From: Candidatus Geothermarchaeota archaeon
GTDB lineage: Archaea; Thermoproteota; Nitrososphaeria; Geothermarchaeales; JDFR-13
DNA: 64,000 nt
Reading direction: 5' to 3'
Assembly: GCA_015523725.1 (NCBI GenBank)
Contig: WAJV01000107.1
Coordinates: 959 to 64,958 of the forward strand
In this document: positions 2,501 through 59,624 of the stretch, piece by piece
Layout of the letters: every line of letters begins with the position of its first letter
Numbering within the stretch: position 1 is the first letter of the stretch
The notes under the pieces: model-generated
The model's input: only the letters and a program-made list of their open reading frames with translations
Database searches by the model: none
Told to the model about the DNA's origin: nothing
Translations under genes and position numbers: made by a program

Positions 2501-4447
2501 CTATAATTTAAATGGCCTAAACAACCTCCCCTCATCAATATAGAACTTCGTAGAGAACTCATAAAATAAAAGCCTTATAGACTGTATGCCAGCTGCGAAG
2601 CCCTCAATTAAAATAACAATGACGTTAAATACAAGGTATGATGGTATAAAGCCCATACTACCAGCCAATATGCCAGCCACTGATGCCAACGCAACATGCG
2701 CGATAGCGAACGCCCCCAACCTAATATATGATATTGAATTAGTTATATAGGATAAGAACATCTCAATAAACTCACTTATACCCTCCATCATAACCTCCGA
2801 AAACGGATGCTTATGCTTAGAGAATACATTCAGTATAGTTGGCTTAAGGAAAATAAACACCAATAAACCTAACTCAACAAGAACTAGGGGCATATTCTCA
2901 GGCGCCCCAAATACGGCTAAACTCATGTGACCAGTAATAAACCTAATAGCCAACACGATACCTATCAAATAATACACCATCCCCACTACGCCACGCCAAC
3001 CAAGCAAAGCCTCAGCATAATCCCTATTCAACAAATTATTAACTATATTCATCAACAGACCTATATTCAGCTGAATTAATCCAAAAATTATCGATGCAAC
3101 CGCTATAACCAAAGGCTCCTCCATAGGGTTAAGCCAAATGGGCTCCATAAAATGAACCAGGAACGACTCACCATATAGGAACCCAAATATTATGGAAAAT
3201 ATACTAGCTGTTGATAGTATGGCACCCAACTTATTAAGGGCTGAATAAGATATCCCCAAGAACGGTTTTCTAAGTCTATATAGAATCTGCCCAATAATAA
3301 ATAAAATTACTCCCTGCCCCACATCACCAAACATCATCCCATACATAATCGAGAAGAGGATCGTGAAGGGAATAGTTGGATCAATCTCATTATAATTAGG
3401 CACACCCCTCATTCTAACAATCAATTGAAAACGACTTAATAAAGGTAATTCAGACAATAATGTAGGCGGCTTATCCTCAGGCCCCGGATCAGACACCTCC
3501 ATATGCATAAGCCCACCAGTAACACCATCAAGAGAAGACCTCAACTCATCAACCTTATCGGAGGGAACCCAACCATAAACAACAGAGAAATTCCTCGTCC
3601 TAACAAGCATAGATTTAACCCTATACATAAATCTAACATACCTCAAATATGGATGGAACCTCTCCCTAAGCCTTACAAACCCCTCTCTCAACCTACTCAA
3701 ATCAGAAAGAAGTTTCTTTCTCTCATCCACCAATTTACTATAGACCTCCCGAGGATCCGTACCCAAATCAGATGGGACGATGGCCTCCTCAAAATTAAGG
3801 GCAGTCAATACACCCACAATACCCTCCTTATCCTTCTGAGACCCAGCGATCAATATAAAATTCTCCTTCTCCCTACCTTTCATTACACTCAAAACAACAT
3901 TATACGGTTTCAAAGCCTCCATAAGCTTATCTACATTAACCTCAGGAATAAAACCAGCCTTGACAAAAATATGTGTATATTCACCAGCTATATCTAGAGA
4001 CACATTATTCCTCTTAAATACATCAACATTAACAATCAAATCATCCAACTCACCTAATCTCCTACGCCCTCTTTCCAGAGCTTCAGCCAACTCATTATAA
4101 GTATCCTCGACCTCAGCCAAGAATGCCCTCAACTTATCCAATGGAAGCTTCTCGGATCCAATAGATACACGCCTAATCCTAAATGCATCACGCAACTTAT
4201 CGATAAAAGATTTCTTAATCTCACTCTTAGGCAGAATCTCATCCAGGGTATTTATCGCGATACCAGCTCTATCATATAACCTTAGAAAAGAATTATATGC
4301 CTCTAACTCCACGTCCCCCCTAACACCACCCCTAGCCTGACTAATAAACTCAACCGCACCCAACCTACCAATCGTCTCCAGAACAACATCCTCCTTATCC
4401 CTAGGCACAGCCACATAAAACTTCTTCATCCGCTTCGGCCGCAACAT
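2501..4447 (-). CDS. atpI: A/V-type ATP synthase subunit I (a)
   Basis: 648 aa. Soluble N-terminal half with coiled coil and polytopic C-terminal half. Adjacent to atpK. Confidence 0.8.
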   Translation of the reverse strand: MLRPKRMKKFYVAVPRDKEDVVLETIGRLGAVEFISQARGGVRGDVELEAYNSFLRLYDRAGIAINTLDEILPKSEIKKSFIDKLRDAFRIRRVSIGSEKLPLDKLRAFLAEVEDTYNELAEALERGRRRLGELDDLIVNVDVFKRNNVSLDIAGEYTHIFVKAGFIPEVNVDKLMEALKPYNVVLSVMKGREKENFILIAGSQKDKEGIVGVLTALNFEEAIVPSDLGTDPREVYSKLVDERKKLLSDLSRLREGFVRLRERFHPYLRYVRFMYRVKSMLVRTRNFSVVYGWVPSDKVDELRSSLDGVTGGLMHMEVSDPGPEDKPPTLLSELPLLSRFQLIVRMRGVPNYNEIDPTIPFTILFSIMYGMMFGDVGQGVILFIIGQILYRLRKPFLGISYSALNKLGAILSTASIFSIIFGFLYGESFLVHFMEPIWLNPMEEPLVIAVASIIFGLIQLNIGLLMNIVNNLLNRDYAEALLGWRGVVGMVYYLIGIVLAIRFITGHMSLAVFGAPENMPLVLVELGLLVFIFLKPTILNVFSKHKHPFSEVMMEGISEFIEMFLSYITNSISYIRLGAFAIAHVALASVAGILAGSMGFIPSYLVFNVIVILIEGFAAGIQSIRLLFYEFSTKFYIDEGRLFRPFKL

Positions 4448-4568
4448 ATATAACCCCCACTAATCGATGAAACGATAGAAGACAATTATAAATTACAAAT
4501 TTATTAACCAGTATCAATTTAAAAAATGTATATATTAATCTAACCGTATTTAACTTAGAGGGATCCAT

Positions 4569-5144
4569 ATGAATATAAGAGATGTGGGATTAATCGCCCT
4601 ACTAATCACCTGGCTAGACACAATTATATACTCAATATACTTAATGATAAACAAGAATATATCAATAACATCCATAGAAAACCTCTATGAAATAGGTAGA
4701 AACCCATACCTATTCATCCTAAACGTAATACTGTTCTCCCTAAGCATATATATCGTCCTTAAAAATAGTCCAGAGAATGAGAGAAATATATTAAAGAAAG
4801 TATTCTGGGGATATCCAATAGCAACTCTATTAATAACACTCATTTATTCATTAATAATAGCAGGCGGGGAAGGCCTAAATATATTTACAAAATCACTGTT
4901 TATCCCAATGTATATCTTCGTTACCCTACTAACAACATTCCTCGCAGACCTATCTATAAAACCCATAAAGATATCTGAATACATTAAAAAATATTCACTA
5001 ATATTCACACTAATAGTAGAATTAGCTGTCTACCTGATACTCAGAATATTACTAGGAGCCTCACCAGTATTGGGAGGAACATTCCTACTACTAACAATTC
5101 TAACCTTAGCACTATATGCAACAGGAAAAATTAAGTTAAGTTAG
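4569..5144 (+). CDS. hypothetical polytopic membrane protein inserted between atpC and atpI on the opposite strand
   Basis: 191 aa with 5-6 hydrophobic helices. No recognisable motif. Confidence 0.4.
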   Translation: MNIRDVGLIALLITWLDTIIYSIYLMINKNISITSIENLYEIGRNPYLFILNVILFSLSIYIVLKNSPENERNILKKVFWGYPIATLLITLIYSLIIAGGEGLNIFTKSLFIPMYIFVTLLTTFLADLSIKPIKISEYIKKYSLIFTLIVELAVYLILRILLGASPVLGGTFLLLTILTLALYATGKIKLS

Positions 5145-6169
5145 ATTACAAGCTTTATCTCTTCCTCAGGAATAGATAACTCCTTGGCGAAAGCTATTGT
5201 AGTCAAGTTCCTATACTCAAAATAGATTGCATTCAAGTACCAGATTACATAACCCAGTCCCAATGCATTCCTAGTAGACATACTCTTAAGAAAATTAGAG
5301 AGAATCAAGTTTATACCATACTCCAGATCAGCTACACTCCCCTCCTCCAAAGCCTCAGCAACATAACTCGAGGCCCAGCCATATGGAGTCGACATAAAAC
5401 TATCTAGGAGAGTTTCTGCCCTAGCCCTCAACAAATTATTTATATATTCATCAGTCAACCTATAAAACGGCCTTAATATAGTCTCCTCAATCAACTCCTG
5501 CGGGGCACCCAACAACTTATATGCAACAATAAAGTAAAGATTCCTTAAATCAATCTCAAAACCAATAATATTCCTAACAACACCCTTATCAGGCAGCCTC
5601 TCAATATATTTAACAACATTCTTATAATACACTCTATCGAGATATGCCTCCAAAGGAATAGTTGAACCATATTCCCGTGCAATTGAAATATAGTTACCGA
5701 CCTCCCGATACTTAGTAAACATCAATAGAGTAACAGCATCCTCCAAGGACTCTGCCTCAATCATAGCCTGATAATTAATCACAGAATAAGTTCTAGGTAA
5801 CGGAATCAAATCATCAACTGCAAGCGATAAACCATGGAACTTAGCTACAAGGATACGTTTAACATTATCCACCTCCACCCTCCTAGTATATGCATCCAAA
5901 AACTTGTTGACAGGCTCAGGAGCAACCTTCAATAAATATAGTAGCCTATCAACATAAACCTCGGAAAAAACTTTATTCAACTCCCTAGCAGTAATACTCT
6001 CCCTAGACAATAAGCCAATCTTCTCTGCATAGTCGCCCCTCGAAACAGACTCAACAAAAGAATTTAAATCCCTAGTCCTAGCCAAGGCCCTAAAATCCTC
6101 AGCATTAAAAAGATGCGTGGATAAGCCATGAGCCCTAGTAATCAAGTAAATATAACTTGCAGACCTCAA
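5141..6169 (-). CDS. atpC: A/V-type ATP synthase subunit C (d)
   Basis: 342 aa all-helical protein. Position directly after atpD in the operon. Confidence 0.7.
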   Translation of the reverse strand: MRSASYIYLITRAHGLSTHLFNAEDFRALARTRDLNSFVESVSRGDYAEKIGLLSRESITARELNKVFSEVYVDRLLYLLKVAPEPVNKFLDAYTRRVEVDNVKRILVAKFHGLSLAVDDLIPLPRTYSVINYQAMIEAESLEDAVTLLMFTKYREVGNYISIAREYGSTIPLEAYLDRVYYKNVVKYIERLPDKGVVRNIIGFEIDLRNLYFIVAYKLLGAPQELIEETILRPFYRLTDEYINNLLRARAETLLDSFMSTPYGWASSYVAEALEEGSVADLEYGINLILSNFLKSMSTRNALGLGYVIWYLNAIYFEYRNLTTIAFAKELSIPEEEIKLVI

Positions 6170-6175
6170 TACATG

Positions 6176-6772
6176 TCACCTACCCAATATATGCTTAGTC
6201 CTCACAAACTCACCCAAAGCATCCTCCATAAGCCTCTCCTCAACATACCTAATAGTCTCCCTATACTGAGGTATAACAATCTTCTCCAGAGAATTAACCT
6301 TCCTAGAAGTACTCATCAACTCATATGCCAATGACTCAATATTATTCTCGACCTCAGCCGTCTTAATCATATAATCAAGAGCCTCATTCAACTTCTTCGC
6401 CAAAGCCTGTATCAAAGGATCGTAAAAAACCGTATAATCAACCCTCTTAGACACCTTCAAACCCACTAAATTAATCCCCATAACCATATTAGTATCAAAA
6501 TCCAGGTCCAAGTAACCGACACTCTTAGCCAATGTCAACAAATCTCTATACCCCTTCCTCATCAAGACATGCGCAAGAAGCTTATAAGCTTCCTTCAACC
6601 GACTCTCCATCTCACTCCTTATACCAACCTCACCCAACAACCTATTAATCTCACCAGCTAAACGATCCCTCTTCATCTCCAGAATCTCTTTCCCCTTAAC
6701 GATAAAACTCAACTGCTCCCTTAGAGCCAAAAGAACACCGGGACTCGCTGAAACACCGGATACAAAACTCAT
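6176..6772 (-). CDS. atpD: A/V-type ATP synthase subunit D
   Basis: 198 aa coiled-coil central stalk protein. N-terminus LLALREQLSFIVKGKEILEMKRDRL is typical of AtpD. Confidence 0.75.
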   Translation of the reverse strand: MSFVSGVSASPGVLLALREQLSFIVKGKEILEMKRDRLAGEINRLLGEVGIRSEMESRLKEAYKLLAHVLMRKGYRDLLTLAKSVGYLDLDFDTNMVMGINLVGLKVSKRVDYTVFYDPLIQALAKKLNEALDYMIKTAEVENNIESLAYELMSTSRKVNSLEKIVIPQYRETIRYVEERLMEDALGEFVRTKHILGR

Positions 6773-6783
6773 ACCCTCAGCAC

Positions 6784-8190
6784 CTAGGAAACAGGTTTAG
6801 CTCTATAATAATATTTCTCCAAAATCTCATCCTTAACCCTAACCAGCTCTTCCTCAGGCAATGTAGATAATACCTCCCAAGCCAAGTCAAGCGTCTCCTC
6901 AATCGTCCTATTCTCATACTCACCTTGATTAATAAACTTCCTCTCAAATATATCGGCGAAACGCAGGAAGAGCCTCTCCCTATCACTCAAACCCATCTCA
7001 CCGACGATCCTAGCCAAATCCCTAGCCTTGAGACCCCTAGAATATGCATCATACAACTGATCCGATACATCCTTATGGTCCTCCCTAGTCTTCCCAGGCC
7101 CCACACCACTCCTCATTAACCTACTGAGACTGGGAAGAACATTAATTGGCGGATAAATGCCCCTAGAATCCAACTCCTTGCTCAATATAATCTGGCCCTC
7201 AGTAATATATCCCGTCAAGTCTGGAATAGGATGTCTCTTATCACCACCCGGCATCGTCAAGATAGGCATCTGCGTCAAAGACCCCGGCCTACCCCTAACA
7301 ATACCAGCCCTCTCATAAATAGTAGCCAAGTCACTATACATATAACCAGGATAACCACCCCTACCCGGAACCTCCTCCCTAGCAGCACTAACCTCCCTAA
7401 GAGCCTCACAATAATTAGTCATATCAGTTAATATAGTTAGAACATGATAACCCAAGTCGAATGCAAGATACTCCGCAATAGTTAATGCAATCCGGGGGGT
7501 TACAAGCCTCTCGATAGCAGGGTCATCAGCCAAATTAAGAACAACCACAGACCTCTCGATAGCACCCGACTCCCTAAACGACTCAATAAAGAAACGGGCC
7601 TCATCATTCTTCAAACCCATCGCGGCAAAAACTATCGCGAACTCCTCCTCCTCACCCAATACAGTCGCCTGCCTAGCAATCTGGGCAGCGACCCTATTAT
7701 GAGGAAGACCAGACTCACTAAATATCGGCAGCTTCTGTCCCCTAATCAAACTCAACATACCATCAATAGCTGATATACCAGTCTGGATAAAGTTATTAGG
7801 ATGAATCCTAGCCCTAGGATTAATCGGCGAACCATTAATATCCCTACGCTCCCTAGACACAATCGGCCCCATACCATCAATAGGCTCAAACCTACCATTA
7901 AACATCCTCCCCAACGCATCATCCGAGACCGGTATCTCGAAAGTAGAGCCGGTGAACCTCACAGCCGTAGCCGTCTCCAAACCCGACTCCTCACCAAAAA
8001 CCTGTACAATAATATATTGGTTACTAACTTCAAGCACTCTACCCATCCTATCGATTCCATCTGGGGCCCTGACTAAAACCACCTCATCATATAAAACATT
8101 GGGTATAGGCTCCAAAACAAGTATAGAACCCCTAACCTCCCTAACACCCTTATGAACAACACCATAAATATCCCTAATATCCAGCGACAT
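6784..8190 (-). CDS. atpB: A/V-type ATP synthase subunit B (regulatory)
   Basis: 468 aa. Degenerate P-loop region and the conserved ...PSLSRLM... segment. Confidence 0.9.
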
Positions 8191-27910: not shown

Positions 27911-29365
27911 TTAATTATTAACAATCAATACTCCTCTCAATCCCTGATCCTTATGTCCAGGCACCGTACACCAGAAAACAAATTCCCCGGCGACATCCGC
28001 AACAAAAGTAAGCGTATACTTATCTCCTGGATTGATTGTATCGGTGGTTAAGTTATAACCATCTATAAATAGATTATGGGGTATAGTCCCATTATTAATG
28101 AAAATTATTGTTATTACTTGACCCTTCTCAACAGATATTCTATTTGGGGTGTAAAACCATTCCTGTGCAGAAACTTTAATGGTAATCGATGCATTTGAAC
28201 TATTACCTACTCCAAACTCGGGGACATTACTAAAGGTGGCTCCGCTAATAACATCTTGTTCAAACATGACGTGGATAAATGGCTGTGGCTTACCATTAGG
28301 AAGTATAAATGGAAGATTTAAGGGATGATAAACCGGTCCATTTTTAGTAATCTGTATTGGGAAGACCACTATATGTGTATGATGTAGTTGGCCTGCCGGT
28401 GTATTATCAATATTGAGTGGAAGCTCTTCATCAAGCATTAACCTATAGTTCTTGTCCCTAACGACTTGAGTAGTCATTCCATGAATAACGACGTTTTGCT
28501 CAATAACTTCCCCGTCAACCACGATGTCGCCGAAGGCCCAGAAAGCAGCGTAGGTAAATAATTTAGGCATTAATGGGGAGCCGGTGCCGGTGGTGCCATG
28601 GTGCCATGCATTTAACAAGACTCCTCCACCGGTCTCATAACCTGGTAAGGGAGGCATAAACACATGCTTAACAACTAATTTATAATTGTTACCACTTGGA
28701 TCCGTAAACGTTATATTAGCATTAACTACATCAGATGTATTTATTGGGGGTCCCATAGTATCATATGGAACTTTATCGATGAACTCGATGCTCATAGACC
28801 CGCTCACTATCCTCGCCTTGTCACTGAATAGAGTAGGGACTTTAAGGATATAATCACCCTCTGGTGAGAAGCCCCTCATCTCCTCGGGAGCCGCCACTAA
28901 GAAAGGTAGTTTACGAAGCAATTCTGGAACACTTGAGCCTAGGGGTTGCGGGAGTCTTGAGGATACGTTGATAGCCCACTCCAACCTATCATTCCCGAAC
29001 ATGGGGTTATCGGGGGTCCCGAATACGCTGGGGCTGAGCCTCCTAAACCCTGGCAAAATCCAGTAAACAATCTTCCCTTCTTCCTGGGAGACAGAGACAC
29101 TCCTAACACTTAACTCAGCGACCCTATCACTCAATGACTTAACCTTTGCTCCAAGGGCGTCATTAACACTCTTCAAATTATCTACCTCAGAGCTTAATTG
29201 ATTATTAATGCTCTTCAACTCACCGACCTTAGAACTAATATTATTTAACTGTGGCACCAGATATAGAGCCAGTCCTCCAGCGCCGATAAGAACACCGAAC
29301 ACCAAGACTATAAAATACCTCAAAAAAAGTTTATTATCCGTATTCGACATCATCAAAAACCTCAC
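27911..29365 (-). CDS. membrane-anchored coiled-coil protein with a C-terminal type-1 copper (cupredoxin) domain
   Basis: N-terminal TM, about 55 aa of heptads, a roughly 290-aa unknown domain, and a C-terminal 90 aa with His (PHNLF) ... WCTVPGH (azurin-like C-x-x-P-G-H) ligands. Confidence 0.6.
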   Translation of the reverse strand: MRFLMMSNTDNKLFLRYFIVLVFGVLIGAGGLALYLVPQLNNISSKVGELKSINNQLSSEVDNLKSVNDALGAKVKSLSDRVAELSVRSVSVSQEEGKIVYWILPGFRRLSPSVFGTPDNPMFGNDRLEWAINVSSRLPQPLGSSVPELLRKLPFLVAAPEEMRGFSPEGDYILKVPTLFSDKARIVSGSMSIEFIDKVPYDTMGPPINTSDVVNANITFTDPSGNNYKLVVKHVFMPPLPGYETGGGVLLNAWHHGTTGTGSPLMPKLFTYAAFWAFGDIVVDGEVIEQNVVIHGMTTQVVRDKNYRLMLDEELPLNIDNTPAGQLHHTHIVVFPIQITKNGPVYHPLNLPFILPNGKPQPFIHVMFEQDVISGATFSNVPEFGVGNSSNASITIKVSAQEWFYTPNRISVEKGQVITIIFINNGTIPHNLFIDGYNLTTDTINPGDKYTLTFVADVAGEFVFWCTVPGHKDQGLRGVLIVNN

Positions 29366-29430
29366 AATGTATAGGAATAGATAATGCTGGAATCCAACTA
29401 TACATCTTTATAAAAAAATTTTTGATTAAT

Positions 29431-29611: not shown

Positions 29612-30151
29612 ATGGAGATGAAGTCATTAAATAGGATAAATCTAGAGAATCTGATGAAGACAGTTGAATACATTAAAGAGAATCCGGAGGCGGCTATAAA
29701 AACCACTAGGGTAGAGGGTGAATGGATACTAGATGAAGAAGAGGGTCCACAATTTAAGGCAACCATATCAACCAGTGAGGGAGAGTTTCAACTAGAGGCC
29801 GACCAACCCATCCAACTAGGTGGAAGTGGGGTGAGGCCGAGTCCAATACATTACTGCCTATATGGAGTGGCATCATGTACAGCAGCCACATTAGCCACAA
29901 TAGCGGCTACACAGGGAATAAAACTAAATAAAATGAAGGTATCCATCACGAATAAAATAAACTTCTCGAGACCACTGGGATTGTCAGACGCCCCCACAGT
30001 ACAAGAAATACAACTAGAAATCCAAATAGAAACAGACGCCAACGAAGACAAAATAAAAAACCTAGAACAACTAACAAAAAACAGATGCCCAGCAATATAC
30101 TGCCTAACCAACCCAATCAAAACAACACTAAAAATAAACAAAACAAAATAA
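29612..30151 (+). CDS. OsmC/Ohr family peroxiredoxin-like protein
   Basis: GGSGVRPSPIHYCLYGVASCTAATL two-Cys OsmC signature. Confidence 0.7.
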   Translation: MEMKSLNRINLENLMKTVEYIKENPEAAIKTTRVEGEWILDEEEGPQFKATISTSEGEFQLEADQPIQLGGSGVRPSPIHYCLYGVASCTAATLATIAATQGIKLNKMKVSITNKINFSRPLGLSDAPTVQEIQLEIQIETDANEDKIKNLEQLTKNRCPAIYCLTNPIKTTLKINKTK

Positions 30152-30380: not shown

Positions 30381-31628
30381 TTACGATAAATTGCCGAGAA
30401 GAGGGAGAGGGGGGTAGTATCTCAGTAGGCTTAGTCCATACTCTCCTTTGATCCATCTTTGTGACCTCTGTTTAACATGGCTTCTATATTTCCTATAAAT
30501 TTTATGCTTTTCTCTAACATCGAATTTATTAGATAGTATTAGATGTTTTAGAAATACCTTCTCTGGGTGTTTTAGCATTAACTGCCTTAGAAGCCATCTT
30601 ACTTCACTTTTTCTTCTTATCTGTATTTGATAGCACTTGGTTCTTTTATTGAACCTTATTATTGGATTCAGCCCTAATTTTATAAACTCGTTTTTGACAA
30701 TATCTATGAGATATTTTTTACTATTTGTTATCGTTAATATATATTCTCCCTTTTTTGAAATCATTATACTTCCATCTGCATCCATTAACCCTGCTAAGAA
30801 ATTTATGAAATAATTATTAACAGCCCACTCAATCCATCGTCTTCTTCCTCTTCTTTTTACTAAATAGTCATATGGCGGCATTGCTATTCTTACTTCAGTC
30901 TCATAAATCTCTCGTAACTGTTTTCTATATTTTCTCATTCGCTTTGCAAATCTTAGATTATAAGGAAAATTCTTGAATATCTTTTTTATTAGCCCTAGAT
31001 ATGTTATATGCGTCGTTGTCAATTTAAGCTCATAGTAGTTGACGTGCTTATTTATCCCTATGTCATCTAGCAACCCAATTAAATACGCCTTTAATTCATC
31101 ATTAAGCTCTAAGGCGGTATTGAAGTCATAGTGATTCTTTGTGTGATGTACCACTAGATTATGCCTTTTCTTTAAGTTATATACAACTTCGGCCGTTATA
31201 TGATATTTCTTAACAATTTCTTTTGTAGACTTTCCTTGTAATATCTCTCTAATGATTTCTTTTTTATTATAATTGTATAGCTTTCTTTTCCTTTTGATCC
31301 TTAGCTTTTTCGCTTTGTATGGCTTTCTTATTCCTTGTATCCAGTTTTTCAATGTTCTCAATGGAATATCCGGATATCTTTCCTTTATCTCCTTCAGTTT
31401 TAATCCTTGGTTCCAAAGTTTTATTATTTCGTAGTATATTTCTGGTTCATAGCTTTTCTTGTATCTTTTTACTTCTTTCTTCTCAGCTCCTTTAGGTTTC
31501 TTTCCATGATAGAACCAGCCTCTTAATGTATCGTATTTCACTCCCAGCGCTTTCGCTATCTCCTTGATTCGATATCCCTTGTTCCTTAGTTCAATAGCTT
31601 TATAGTATGTCTCTGGGTCATACACCAA
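30381..31628 (-). CDS. free-standing LAGLIDADG homing-endonuclease-like protein with three N-terminal HTH repeats
   Basis: Repeated YYKAIELRNKGYRIKEIAK / YYEIIKLWNQGLKLKEIKE / IIREILQGKSTKEIVKK HTH units. LIGLLDDIG and LAGLMDADGS dodecapeptide motifs. Confidence 0.65.
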   Translation of the reverse strand: MVYDPETYYKAIELRNKGYRIKEIAKALGVKYDTLRGWFYHGKKPKGAEKKEVKRYKKSYEPEIYYEIIKLWNQGLKLKEIKERYPDIPLRTLKNWIQGIRKPYKAKKLRIKRKRKLYNYNKKEIIREILQGKSTKEIVKKYHITAEVVYNLKKRHNLVVHHTKNHYDFNTALELNDELKAYLIGLLDDIGINKHVNYYELKLTTTHITYLGLIKKIFKNFPYNLRFAKRMRKYRKQLREIYETEVRIAMPPYDYLVKRRGRRRWIEWAVNNYFINFLAGLMDADGSIMISKKGEYILTITNSKKYLIDIVKNEFIKLGLNPIIRFNKRTKCYQIQIRRKSEVRWLLRQLMLKHPEKVFLKHLILSNKFDVREKHKIYRKYRSHVKQRSQRWIKGEYGLSLLRYYPPLPLLGNLS

Positions 31629-59531: not shown

Positions 59532-59624
59532 GGGCCCGTCGTCTAGCTTGGCTAGGATGCCAGCCTGGGGACCCATATTGGGCTAGTGCGCTGGTGATCG
59601 TGGGTTCAAATCCCACCGGGCCCA
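59532..59624 (+). tRNA. tRNA-Pro (anticodon GGG by the preferred fold, UGG alternative) with an approximately 18-nt intron after position 37
   Basis: Acceptor GGGCCCG/CGGGCCC. T-arm GTGGG-TTCAAAT-CCCAC. Anticodon stem CCAGC/GCTGG. Loop C-T-GGG-G, then an 18-nt insert. Discriminator A. Confidence 0.7.

What the first reader, a model, noticed from the sequence alone, without database searches (positions are those of the whole stretch)
27911..29365. 484-aa membrane-anchored coiled-coil protein ending in an azurin-like cupredoxin domain
The architecture is a TM helix, then about 55 aa of heptad coiled coil, then an unassigned domain of about 290 aa, then a C-terminal cupredoxin. The cupredoxin has a His in PHNLF and the C-T-V-P-G-H loop characteristic of azurin/sulfocyanin-type blue copper sites. 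The usual axial Met position is not obvious (HKDQGL). Glu/Gln or Leu may occupy it, which would tune the redox potential. It is much larger than sulfocyanin or halocyanin. It could be a new extracellular electron-transfer or oxidase-associated protein.
Basis: partly seen in the sequence, partly recalled or inferred. Interest (0 to 1): 0.55.

Follow-up and report, generated by a model that had tools for sequence, protein, structure and literature searches.

The report
Membrane-tethered cupredoxin fused to unknown domain
This archaeal gene encodes a membrane-anchored, stalked surface protein in which a blue-copper electron-carrier domain is fused to a strongly conserved 290-residue domain of unknown fold and function; across many microbes that domain almost always travels with a blue-copper or cytochrome c partner, so it is probably an undescribed redox enzyme.

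Summary
ORF 27911-29365 (-) encodes a TM helix, an 8-heptad coiled coil, a ~290-aa domain with no family assignment, and a C-terminal type-1 cupredoxin (ligands H430, C466, H471). The axial position is Leu476, which aligns with Met in most homologues.

The main result concerns the middle domain ("X"). It has no Pfam, NCBIfam or PDB sequence match. Its AlphaFold model is very confident (pLDDT 96.6), yet Foldseek finds nothing in the PDB or BFVD. It is nevertheless 45-57% identical across haloarchaea, Nitrososphaeria, Halomonas, Marinobacter and about ten other lineages, and is always exported.

In 48 of 63 genomic loci X is fused to a cupredoxin or has a cupredoxin gene directly beside it. Other relatives are fused to c-type cytochromes, and one distant relative is fused to a PQQ dehydrogenase plus a cupredoxin. 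H256, H295, M297, H331, H365 and M367 are invariant.

Best reading: X is a new, probably copper-dependent, extracytoplasmic oxidoreductase module, and the cupredoxin is its built-in one-electron relay. The substrate is unknown. Weak, recurrent neighbours (MerR/MerA, P1B ATPases, HxlR, CMD, OsmC) hint at metal or oxidant stress. It is not azurin, sulfocyanin, a multicopper oxidase, NirK or NosZ.

The parts
27911..29365 (-). Whole ORF, 484 aa from a GTG start (the public record starts at Met6, nt 29350); the stop codon is included
29406..29414 (-). TATA-like TTTATAAAG element about 41-49 nt upstream of the GTG. It is a possible archaeal promoter (inference only)
29255..29326 (-). N-terminal transmembrane anchor, residues 14-37 (FLRYFIVLVFGVLIGAGGLALYLV)
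   Evidence: hydropathy maximum; modelled as a helix; sequence read at these coordinates
29090..29254 (-). Coiled-coil stalk, residues 38-92: 8 heptads with Leu/Ile/Val at d positions and Val/Asn at a positions
   Evidence: heptad scan, 82% hydrophobic a/d; continuous helix 29-85; weak hits to coiled-coil families
28226..29089 (-). Domain X, residues 93-380: a conserved, exported domain with no known family or fold and mostly beta structure
   Evidence: no Pfam, NCBIfam or PDB match; model pLDDT 96.6 with no Foldseek match; homologues 45-57% identical
28598..28600 (-). H256, invariant in 63 of 63 genomic homologues; a candidate metal ligand
28475..28483 (-). H295-x-M297, invariant; candidate metal ligands on one beta strand
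28373..28384 (-). H328-H329-T330-H331. H331 is invariant. H328 and H329 are kept in cupredoxin-linked members and lost in the cupredoxin-less haloarchaeal subclade
28265..28273 (-). H365-x-M367, invariant; part of the QPFIHVMFEQ signature
28193..28225 (-). Low-confidence linker, residues 381-391 (VPEFGVGNSSN)
   Evidence: pLDDT below 50 for residues 385-390
27914..28192 (-). C-terminal type-1 cupredoxin domain, residues 392-484
   Evidence: Pfam Cupredoxin_1 and Copper-bind; PDB sequence hits; Foldseek target TM 0.85-0.92 to 4hcf/4hci
28076..28078 (-). H430, first His ligand of the type-1 Cu site
27953..27970 (-). C466-TVPG-H471, the Cys and second His ligands of the type-1 Cu site. C466 is the only Cys in the protein
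27938..27940 (-). L476, the axial position (Met in most homologues)

Best explanation
The gene encodes an extracytoplasmic, membrane-tethered, two-centre redox protein. An N-terminal TM helix and a coiled-coil stalk of about 8 nm (probably oligomerising) hold two globular domains outside the membrane.

Domain X is the functional core. It belongs to a previously undescribed family whose invariant His4Met2 cluster (H256, H295, M297, H331, H365, M367) most likely binds copper and forms a catalytic or redox site.

The C-terminal type-1 cupredoxin (H430, C466, H471, axial L476) is its dedicated one-electron relay. It would connect X to the membrane electron-transport chain or to another carrier. 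The Met-to-Leu axial change predicts a higher-than-usual potential for this subclade.

The substrate is unknown. I favour a reaction on a metal ion or a small oxidant or anion, serving detoxification or homeostasis, over a core energy-conserving reaction.

Shown: the architecture, the cupredoxin fold and ligands, the conservation, export, and the obligate linkage to electron carriers. Inferred: copper in X, catalysis, the direction of electron flow, and the substrate class.
For: **Linkage to electron carriers**
- In 63 genomic loci from about ten phyla, X is fused to a cupredoxin in 13 and has a cupredoxin gene directly adjacent in 35.
- The same two-gene pair appears in Marinobacter, Limimonas and Halogeometricum with otherwise unrelated neighbours.
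- Other family members are fused to one to three c-type cytochrome domains. One distant member is PQQ dehydrogenase + X + cupredoxin, and another lies directly downstream of a PQQ dehydrogenase.

**Location**
- Nearly all of 106 family members examined start with a signal-type or anchor N-terminus: the scan flagged 25 with a twin-arginine motif and 32 with a lipobox. Most of the rest show a hydrophobic signal or TM segment by eye, and a few sequences are N-terminally truncated.

**Candidate metal site**
- H256, H295, M297, H331, H365 and M367 are invariant, as are R108, R164, R303, D197, D212 and Y228 with at most one or two exceptions.
- H-x-M and H-x-H pairs lie on predicted beta strands.
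- H328 and H329 are lost only in the subclade that lacks a cupredoxin neighbour.

**Independent domain**
- The X model has pLDDT 96.6 and pTM 0.94.

**Cupredoxin**
- Fold and ligands are confirmed.

**Context hints at stress**
- Genuine merR and merA in Halomonas cerina, and a merR-like gene in Marinobacter.
- P1B heavy-metal ATPases in six loci from five phyla.
- Lpd/MerA-like disulfide oxidoreductases in about ten loci.
- CMD/AhpD-like genes, HxlR regulators, and OsmC in the window.

**Background knowledge (from memory)**
- His/Met sites are typical of periplasmic copper proteins (PCuAC, CopC, P19/FetP, the PHM CuM site).
- NirK occurs with tethered cupredoxin or cytochrome c extensions.
Against: - No cofactor, activity or structure has been determined for any family member, and no paper describing it was found.
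- I could not access model coordinates, so spatial clustering of the conserved His and Met residues is untested.
- No neighbour other than the cupredoxin is conserved. The stress and metal hints occur in a minority of loci and point to different metals: three Cu-type and three Zn/Cd-type ATPases.
- Nothing in the window's own neighbourhood (OsmC, an Lrp/AsnC-type regulator, Elp3, GatD) is related to respiration or metals.
- The 64-kb window contains no other cupredoxin or c-type cytochrome.
- The PQQ dehydrogenase fusion could equally mean that X is only an electron relay.
Confidence: 0.55

Rival explanations
1. X is not an enzyme. It would be a copper-trafficking or pure electron-transfer module, for example a Cu(I)-binding chaperone that loads or buffers copper for its cupredoxin, or an extra redox relay between dehydrogenases and cupredoxin or cytochrome c.
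For: - The invariant His/Met set resembles Cu(I)-binding motifs of periplasmic chaperones (the H-x-M motif of PCuAC; from memory).
- In P0235, X sits between a PQQ dehydrogenase and a cupredoxin, where quinohaemoprotein dehydrogenases carry a haem c relay domain (comparison from memory).
- Copper-type P1B ATPases lie near X in three loci.
Against: - A 290-aa domain with about 50% identity across domains of life, three invariant Arg and several invariant Asp is more than known small copper chaperones need.
- X also occurs fused to cytochromes c, which need no copper.
- Tandem X-X proteins exist.
- A cupredoxin-less subclade keeps the His4Met2 set.
Confidence: 0.2
2. The protein is simply a tethered electron carrier of the sulfocyanin or halocyanin kind. 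The middle domain would be a structural spacer, or a surface- or ligand-binding ectodomain, with no redox role.
For: - Archaea commonly anchor cupredoxins to the membrane (from memory).
- The window protein has a long stalk.
- No cofactor motif in X matches any database family.
Against: - X, not the cupredoxin, is the better-conserved part.
- X occurs as a separate gene next to a small cupredoxin in 35 loci, and with cytochromes c elsewhere.
- The invariant residues are His, Met, Arg and Asp rather than a hydrophobic core only.
- SoxE scores below its threshold.
Confidence: 0.1
3. X-cupredoxin is a divergent member of a known copper enzyme family: multicopper oxidase or laccase, NirK, NosZ (including lactonase-type NosZ), or PHM/DBH-type monooxygenase.
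For: - Weak Pfam and NCBIfam hits to Cu-oxidase_2/3, NirK and NosZ models.
- An HH...H...HxH...M pattern in X is reminiscent of PHM (from memory).
Against: - All those hits map to residues 383-483, the cupredoxin, and lie far below the family cut-offs.
- X has no Foldseek match to any PDB structure, cupredoxin-based enzymes and beta-propellers included.
- A profile search of PDB sequences found nothing.
- The protein has a single Cys, so a CuA site is excluded.
Confidence: 0.04

Closest known systems
Small Cupredoxin_1 / plastocyanin-family blue copper proteins (e.g. B. anthracis 4HCF/4HCI, auracyanin 6KOL)
   Same: The C-terminal 93 aa have the same Greek-key fold (target TM 0.85-0.92 to 4hcf/4hci, 0.67 to 6kol) and the His-Cys-His ligand set, with C-x4-H-x4 loop spacing.
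   Different: The axial ligand is Leu, not Met. The domain is the C-terminal appendage of a 484-aa membrane-tethered protein, not a free carrier.
Copper nitrite reductases with a tethered cupredoxin or cytochrome c domain (6TFD, 2DV6)
   Same: These are the best PDB sequence matches to the window's cupredoxin (E 3.7e-10). The design logic is the same: a catalytic module fused to a one-electron carrier. Family members use either a cupredoxin or cytochrome c.
   Different: The catalytic part of NirK is itself built of cupredoxin domains with a type-2 site at the trimer interface. X has no detectable cupredoxin fold or NirK similarity.
Archaeal membrane-anchored cupredoxins (sulfocyanin SoxE, halocyanin)
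   Same: An extracytoplasmic type-1 copper domain held at the archaeal membrane.
   Different: The SoxE model scores E=0.052, below its cut-off.
Quinohaemoprotein alcohol dehydrogenases with azurin as acceptor (from memory)
   Same: One distant family member is PQQ dehydrogenase + X + cupredoxin, and another X-(cytochrome c)3 gene follows a PQQ dehydrogenase gene. X sits where those enzymes carry a redox relay domain.
   Different: The window protein and its close relatives have no PQQ domain or PQQ dehydrogenase neighbour.
Periplasmic His/Met copper proteins: PCuAC, CopC/PcoC, P19/FetP, CopI (from memory)
   Same: Exported beta-rich proteins that use His and Met ligands (H-x-M motifs; His3Met in P19). 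Some act with cupredoxin-type partners in copper or iron redox homeostasis. A weak partial CopI hit falls at the start of the window's cupredoxin domain (residues 383-432).
   Different: X has no sequence or fold match to any of them. X is two to three times larger.

Membership tests
Type-1 cupredoxin (Pfam PF13473 / PF00127) | Sequence match above the curated threshold | tested here: met
   Cupredoxin_1 scores 39.9 bits against a cut-off of 27. Copper-bind scores 30.9 against 21.2. Both cover residues 390-483.
Type-1 cupredoxin (Pfam PF13473 / PF00127) | Greek-key beta-sandwich fold | tested here: met
   Foldseek matches the model to 4hcf/4hci with target TM 0.85-0.92 and rmsd 1.3-1.4 A over about 90 residues.
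Type-1 cupredoxin (Pfam PF13473 / PF00127) | His, Cys, His equatorial ligands in the conserved columns | tested here: met
   H430, C466 and H471 align with the H/C/H columns of 29 homologues that align at all four positions and with the NirK and auracyanin ligand loops.
Type-1 cupredoxin (Pfam PF13473 / PF00127) | Axial Met (classic blue site) | tested here: not met
   L476 occupies the Met column. Met is present in 36 fused homologues; Leu is present only in the window protein, P0006, P0007 and P0122. Leu or Phe at the axial position is known in high-potential type-1 sites of laccases (from memory), so this is a variant, not an exclusion.
Type-1 cupredoxin (Pfam PF13473 / PF00127) | Copper binding with a blue 600-nm band and a small A-parallel EPR signal | not testable with these tools
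   Needs purified protein.
Azurin | Sequence membership in the azurin subfamily | tested here: not met
   No azurin chain appears among the 60 best PDB hits shown (of 96 at E<=1). The best hits are NirK extensions, auracyanin, nitrosocyanin, CuA domains and plastocyanins. Only the C-x4-H-x4-X loop spacing is azurin-like.
Sulfocyanin (SoxE, PF06525) | Match to the SoxE model above its threshold | tested here: not met
   E=0.052, 13.5 bits against a cut-off of 21, and only residues 444-483 are covered.
Multicopper oxidase / NirK | Two or more cupredoxin domains carrying type-2/type-3 His motifs | tested here: not met
   The Cu-oxidase_2/3 and NirK hits cover only residues 395-483. X shows no cupredoxin or MCO fold match.
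Nitrous-oxide reductase (including lactonase-type L-NosZ) | A beta-propeller catalytic domain plus a CuA domain with two Cys | tested here: not met
   The L-NosZ model scores 21.8 bits against a cut-off of 700, over the C-terminal domain only. The protein has a single Cys. X gives no propeller match.
PHM/DBH, PCuAC, CopC, P19/FetP (known His/Met copper domains) | Sequence or fold similarity of X to the family | tested here: not met
Domain-X family (defined here) | Signature motifs YW[VI]LPGxRxL, PP[IL]PGYETGGGV, HGxTGTGSPLMP, HxMTTQxVR, ELPL, HHTH, QPFIHxM[FW]EQ | tested here: met
   All are present in the window protein. A family HMM scores 413 bits, E 9e-126.
Domain-X family (defined here) | Coupled to a cupredoxin or cytochrome c (fusion or adjacent gene), and exported | tested here: met
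   The window protein is a fusion with an N-terminal TM anchor.

The most novel reading that the evidence does not exclude
Domain X is a previously unrecognised copper-enzyme fold with a His4Met2 active site. Together with its dedicated cupredoxin (or cytochrome c) it would form a new class of extracytoplasmic oxidoreductase. This class appears to be spread by horizontal transfer, mainly among halophiles and some Nitrososphaeria. It would act on a substrate for which no enzyme is currently assigned in these organisms, for example a metal ion such as Cu(I) or Hg, a reactive chlorine or oxygen species, or a small N or S oxyanion. The window protein would be a stalked, membrane-tethered, high-potential (axial Leu) version.
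Probability: 0.4. Interest if true: 0.8.

Novelty: new variant of a known kind. Interest (0 to 1): 0.6.

Why it matters
- If X is a catalytic copper domain, it adds a new fold and a new reaction to the short list of extracytoplasmic copper enzymes that draw on cupredoxins or cytochromes c (NirK, NosZ, multicopper oxidases).
- It would give a function to a gene pair now annotated 'hypothetical protein' plus 'cupredoxin domain-containing protein' in haloarchaea, Halomonas, Marinobacter and Nitrososphaeria.
- The family is easy to test. It is a self-contained two-gene or one-gene module, it is exported, it needs no complex cofactor machinery, and cultivable, genetically tractable hosts carry it.
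- The natural Met/Leu axial variants of the tethered type-1 site offer a built-in experiment on redox tuning.

Tried and rejected

**Literature**
- Searches on cupredoxin with haloarchaea or Marinobacter, on the mer operon with cupredoxin, on locus tags, on Geothermarchaeota, and on AOA with hydroxylamine found no description of the family.
- The Alteromonas merR-copA-cupredoxin island described in PMC8478169 is a different cluster and lacks X.

**Regulation by MerR**
- I looked for a second mer-operator-like dyad upstream of X in Halomonas and Marinobacter and found none that was convincing. Regulation by MerR is therefore unproven.

**Neighbourhood census**
- A Pfam census of 327 neighbouring ORFs over 64 loci found no conserved partner other than the cupredoxin.
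- Extra neighbour annotations (M1 peptidase, NosD-like beta-helix, DsrE-like, Crp) gave no coherent pathway.

**Rejected readings**
- Azurin or sulfocyanin membership, MCO/NirK/NosZ membership, and a CuA site (only one Cys).

**Not done**
- Spatial clustering of the ligands could not be measured, because model coordinates are not exposed.
Full report
**1. The observation**

The minus-strand ORF 27911..29365 (GTG start, 484 aa) is present exactly as described. An identical protein is already in public collections with Met6 as its start, giving 479 aa.

- Residues 14-37 (FLRYFIVLVFGVLIGAGGLALYLV) form the only strongly hydrophobic segment.
- Residues about 38-92 fit a single heptad register. Leu/Ile/Val occupy d positions and Val/Asn occupy a positions, 82% hydrophobic over 8 heptads. 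AlphaFold models one long helix over residues 29-85.
- Pfam and NCBIfam recognise only the C-terminal 93 residues: Cupredoxin_1 at 4.4e-10 and Copper-bind at 3.7e-07, both above their thresholds.
- The modelled C-terminal domain superposes on solved Cupredoxin_1 proteins with target TM 0.85-0.92 and rmsd 1.3-1.4 A.
- H430, C466 and H471 fall in the conserved His/Cys/His columns. C466 is the only cysteine in the protein.
- The axial column holds Leu476. In pairwise alignments it faces the Met of the NirK N-terminal cupredoxins and of auracyanin. In the family alignment it faces Met in 36 fused homologues; only the window protein and three close relatives (P0006, P0007, P0122) have Leu.

From established cupredoxin chemistry (my knowledge, not tested here), replacing Met with Leu raises the potential of a type-1 site.

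**2. The organism**

The neighbouring GatD is 60-62% identical to proteins labelled Candidatus Geothermarchaeota and about 48% identical to Nitrososphaera. The window therefore comes from an uncultured, low-GC (about 37%) archaeon related to Nitrososphaeria, not from a halophile.

- The gene stands alone. Its neighbours are a divergently transcribed OsmC-family gene, a double-HTH Lrp/AsnC-type regulator, Elp3, GatD, a LAGLIDADG/HTH protein and a polysaccharide flippase.
- The 64-kb window contains no other cupredoxin, no second copy of the middle domain and no CxxCH protein.

**3. The middle domain is the real finding**

Residues about 93-380 ("X") have no match in several searches:

- Pfam or NCBIfam at E<=1.
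- PDB sequences searched with the single protein.
- PDB sequences searched with a 64-sequence profile.

Yet X is strongly conserved:

- Homologues are 45-57% identical. They come from haloarchaea, Nitrososphaeraceae, Thermoplasmatales, a nanohaloarchaeal MAG, Halomonas, Marinobacter, Alcanivorax, Ectothiorhodospiraceae, Limimonas, Desulfobacterales, Bradymonadaceae, Spirochaetaceae, Thermotogae, Bipolaricaulia, Opitutales and Chloroflexota.
- In the library of 50%-identity cluster representatives, 71 proteins match the whole 484-aa protein at E<=1e-30. Some of these match through the cupredoxin alone.

X occurs in several arrangements:

- a free-standing exported protein of about 330 aa;
- tandem X-X;
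- X-X-cupredoxin;
- X-cupredoxin, as in the window;
- cytochrome c-X.

Structure prediction gives the following:

- An AlphaFold model of X alone is very confident, with pLDDT 96.6 and pTM 0.94, and is mostly beta.
- Foldseek finds nothing for it in the PDB (best E 0.46, TM <=0.21) or in BFVD.

**4. X is coupled to one-electron carriers**

I built HMMs for X and for the cupredoxin domain and scanned 66 genomic loci.

- X was fused to a cupredoxin in 13 loci and had a cupredoxin gene immediately adjacent in 35, mostly directly downstream. Fifteen loci had neither.
- Of those 15, ten (L060-L069) are divergent members, 32-38% identical to X and mostly haloarchaeal. In the other five, one contig begins at X, one shows a probable frameshifted fusion, and one has a cupredoxin 4 kb away.
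- Independent gene calls show the same X-then-cupredoxin pair in Marinobacter sp. ELB17, Limimonas halophila and Halogeometricum borinquense, with otherwise unrelated neighbours.
- More distant relatives are fused to two or three cytochrome c domains, or to N- or C-terminal cupredoxins. One is fused to a PQQ dehydrogenase plus a cupredoxin.
- An X-(cytochrome c)3 gene lies directly downstream of a PQQ dehydrogenase gene.
- Nearly all of the 106 family members I inspected begin with a Tat or Sec signal, a lipobox or a TM anchor; a few sequences are N-terminally truncated.

This pattern of fusion and adjacency across domains of life is the strongest evidence here. It says that X works outside the cytoplasm and exchanges single electrons with high-potential carriers.

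**5. A probable metal site**

- Across all 63 genomic homologues, H256, H295, M297, H331, H365 and M367 are invariant. W102, R164, D212, Y228, R303 and Q361 are also invariant, and R108 and D197 have one or two exceptions.
- The H-x-M, H-x-H and H-x-M pairs lie on three predicted beta strands, where alternate residues face the same side.
- H328 and H329 are conserved in cupredoxin-linked members. They are replaced by Ser/Thr and Val/Gln in six of the ten divergent cupredoxin-less members (L060-L064, L067). This fits a role at the electron-transfer interface or in a second site.
- His/Met ligand sets are typical of periplasmic copper proteins such as PCuAC, CopC, P19/FetP and the CuM site of PHM (from memory). 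X matches none of them in sequence or fold.
- Bacterial members use Sec signals and can be fused to c-type cytochromes, which argues for a simple metal ion rather than a complex cytoplasmically inserted cofactor (inference).
- I could not measure distances in the model, so clustering of these residues is untested.

**6. Context beyond the cupredoxin**

All-against-all clustering of neighbouring ORFs, and a Pfam census of 327 neighbours in 64 loci, found no other conserved partner. Several weak themes recur:

- A genuine merR (above the NCBIfam cut-off) lies directly upstream of X-cupredoxin in Halomonas cerina, and is divergent from a merT-merA fusion. A merR-like gene lies upstream in two Marinobacter genomes. 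I found no second mer operator.
- P1B heavy-metal ATPases occur in six loci from five phyla. Three are copper-type and three are Zn/Cd-type.
- Lpd/MerA/RclA-like pyridine-nucleotide disulfide oxidoreductases occur in about ten loci, directly upstream in Natrialbaceae together with a small DsrE-like ORF.
- Other recurrent neighbours are CMD/AhpD-like genes and HxlR-type regulators, including one divergent from the closest same-architecture homologue P0006. Rhodanese appears in some loci, and OsmC in the window itself.

Together these lean towards metal, thiol or oxidant stress rather than core respiration. They are minority associations and do not identify a substrate.

**7. Best explanation and rivals**

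- I conclude, with about 0.55 confidence, that the protein is a membrane-tethered extracytoplasmic oxidoreductase. X would be a new, probably copper-binding, catalytic domain and the cupredoxin its built-in electron relay. The coiled coil would act as a stalk and oligomerisation element.
- The first rival is that X is a copper-trafficking or pure electron-relay domain (0.2).
- The second rival is that X is a structural or binding ectodomain of a tethered carrier (0.1).
- The third rival is that the protein is a divergent member of the MCO, NirK, NosZ or PHM families (0.04). This last is nearly excluded, because all such hits map to the cupredoxin and lie far below their cut-offs.

**8. Comparison with known families**

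- The C-terminal domain is a bona fide type-1 cupredoxin with an axial Leu variant.
- It is not azurin: no azurin appears among the 60 best PDB hits shown.
- It is not sulfocyanin: SoxE scores below its threshold.
- The overall logic most resembles NirK enzymes with tethered cupredoxin or cytochrome c domains, and quinohaemoprotein dehydrogenases. The catalytic candidate X, however, belongs to no described family.

**9. Novelty and verdict**

- The kind of system, an exported redox module with a dedicated cupredoxin, is known.
- The module itself is undescribed, apparently of a new fold, and widespread but patchy, mostly in organisms from hypersaline habitats.
- I found no paper on it.
- I rate it a new variant of a known kind, with interest 0.6. 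There is a 0.4 chance that it represents a genuinely new copper-enzyme class, with interest 0.8 if so.

Noticed in passing
window 59532-59624 (+): Rfam reports a 93-nt tRNA match (51.5 bits), but ARAGORN calls no tRNA anywhere in the window. It is probably an intron-containing archaeal tRNA.
   Followed up: no
window 30381-31628 (-): A 415-aa lysine-rich protein with several HTH motifs and a LAGLIDADG_3 domain. It is a free-standing homing-endonuclease-like gene two genes upstream of the finding.
   Followed up: no
window 29612-30151 (+): An OsmC-family (peroxiredoxin-like) gene is transcribed divergently from the finding, 246 bp away. It is the only stress-related neighbour in the window.
   Followed up: partly
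L044 (Halomonas cerina) 3182-7443; L024 and L074 (Marinobacter): A genuine mercury-resistance merR lies directly upstream of, and co-directional with, the X gene and its cupredoxin gene. It is divergent from a merT-merA fusion. A merR-like gene also lies upstream of X in two Marinobacter genomes. No second mer operator was found.
   Followed up: partly
P0235; L077 1255-6292; L078 1043-5551: A distant branch of the X family is tied to PQQ dehydrogenases. One protein is a PQQ-DH + X + cupredoxin fusion, and another X-(cytochrome c)3 gene lies right after a PQQ-DH gene. A 306-aa ORF follows X-cytochrome c in both loci; in L077 it has no Pfam hit, and in L078 it touches the contig end and has no Pfam record.
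   Followed up: partly
L060-L064 and L067 (Halobacteria): A haloarchaeal subclade of X has no cupredoxin neighbour and has lost H328 and H329. It keeps H256, H295, M297, H331, H365 and M367.
   Followed up: partly
L009, L010, L011, L034 (Natrialbaceae): A dihydrolipoyl-dehydrogenase-like (MerA/RclA-related) flavoprotein flanks the X-cupredoxin fusion gene in L009-L011: upstream in L009 and L011, downstream in L010. A small DsrE-like ORF of about 120-145 aa lies directly upstream of X in L009, L011 and L034.
   Followed up: partly
P0002, P0004, P0003 (metagenomic and haloarchaeal proteins): Tandem duplications of the domain exist, as X-X and as X-X-cupredoxin in single polypeptides.
   Followed up: no
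window, whole: There is strong strand-specific base skew: GC skew reaches -0.5 over minus-strand gene blocks, and AT skew reaches +0.47 over 34-44 kb. The skew tracks the coding strand, not any feature of the finding.
   Followed up: no
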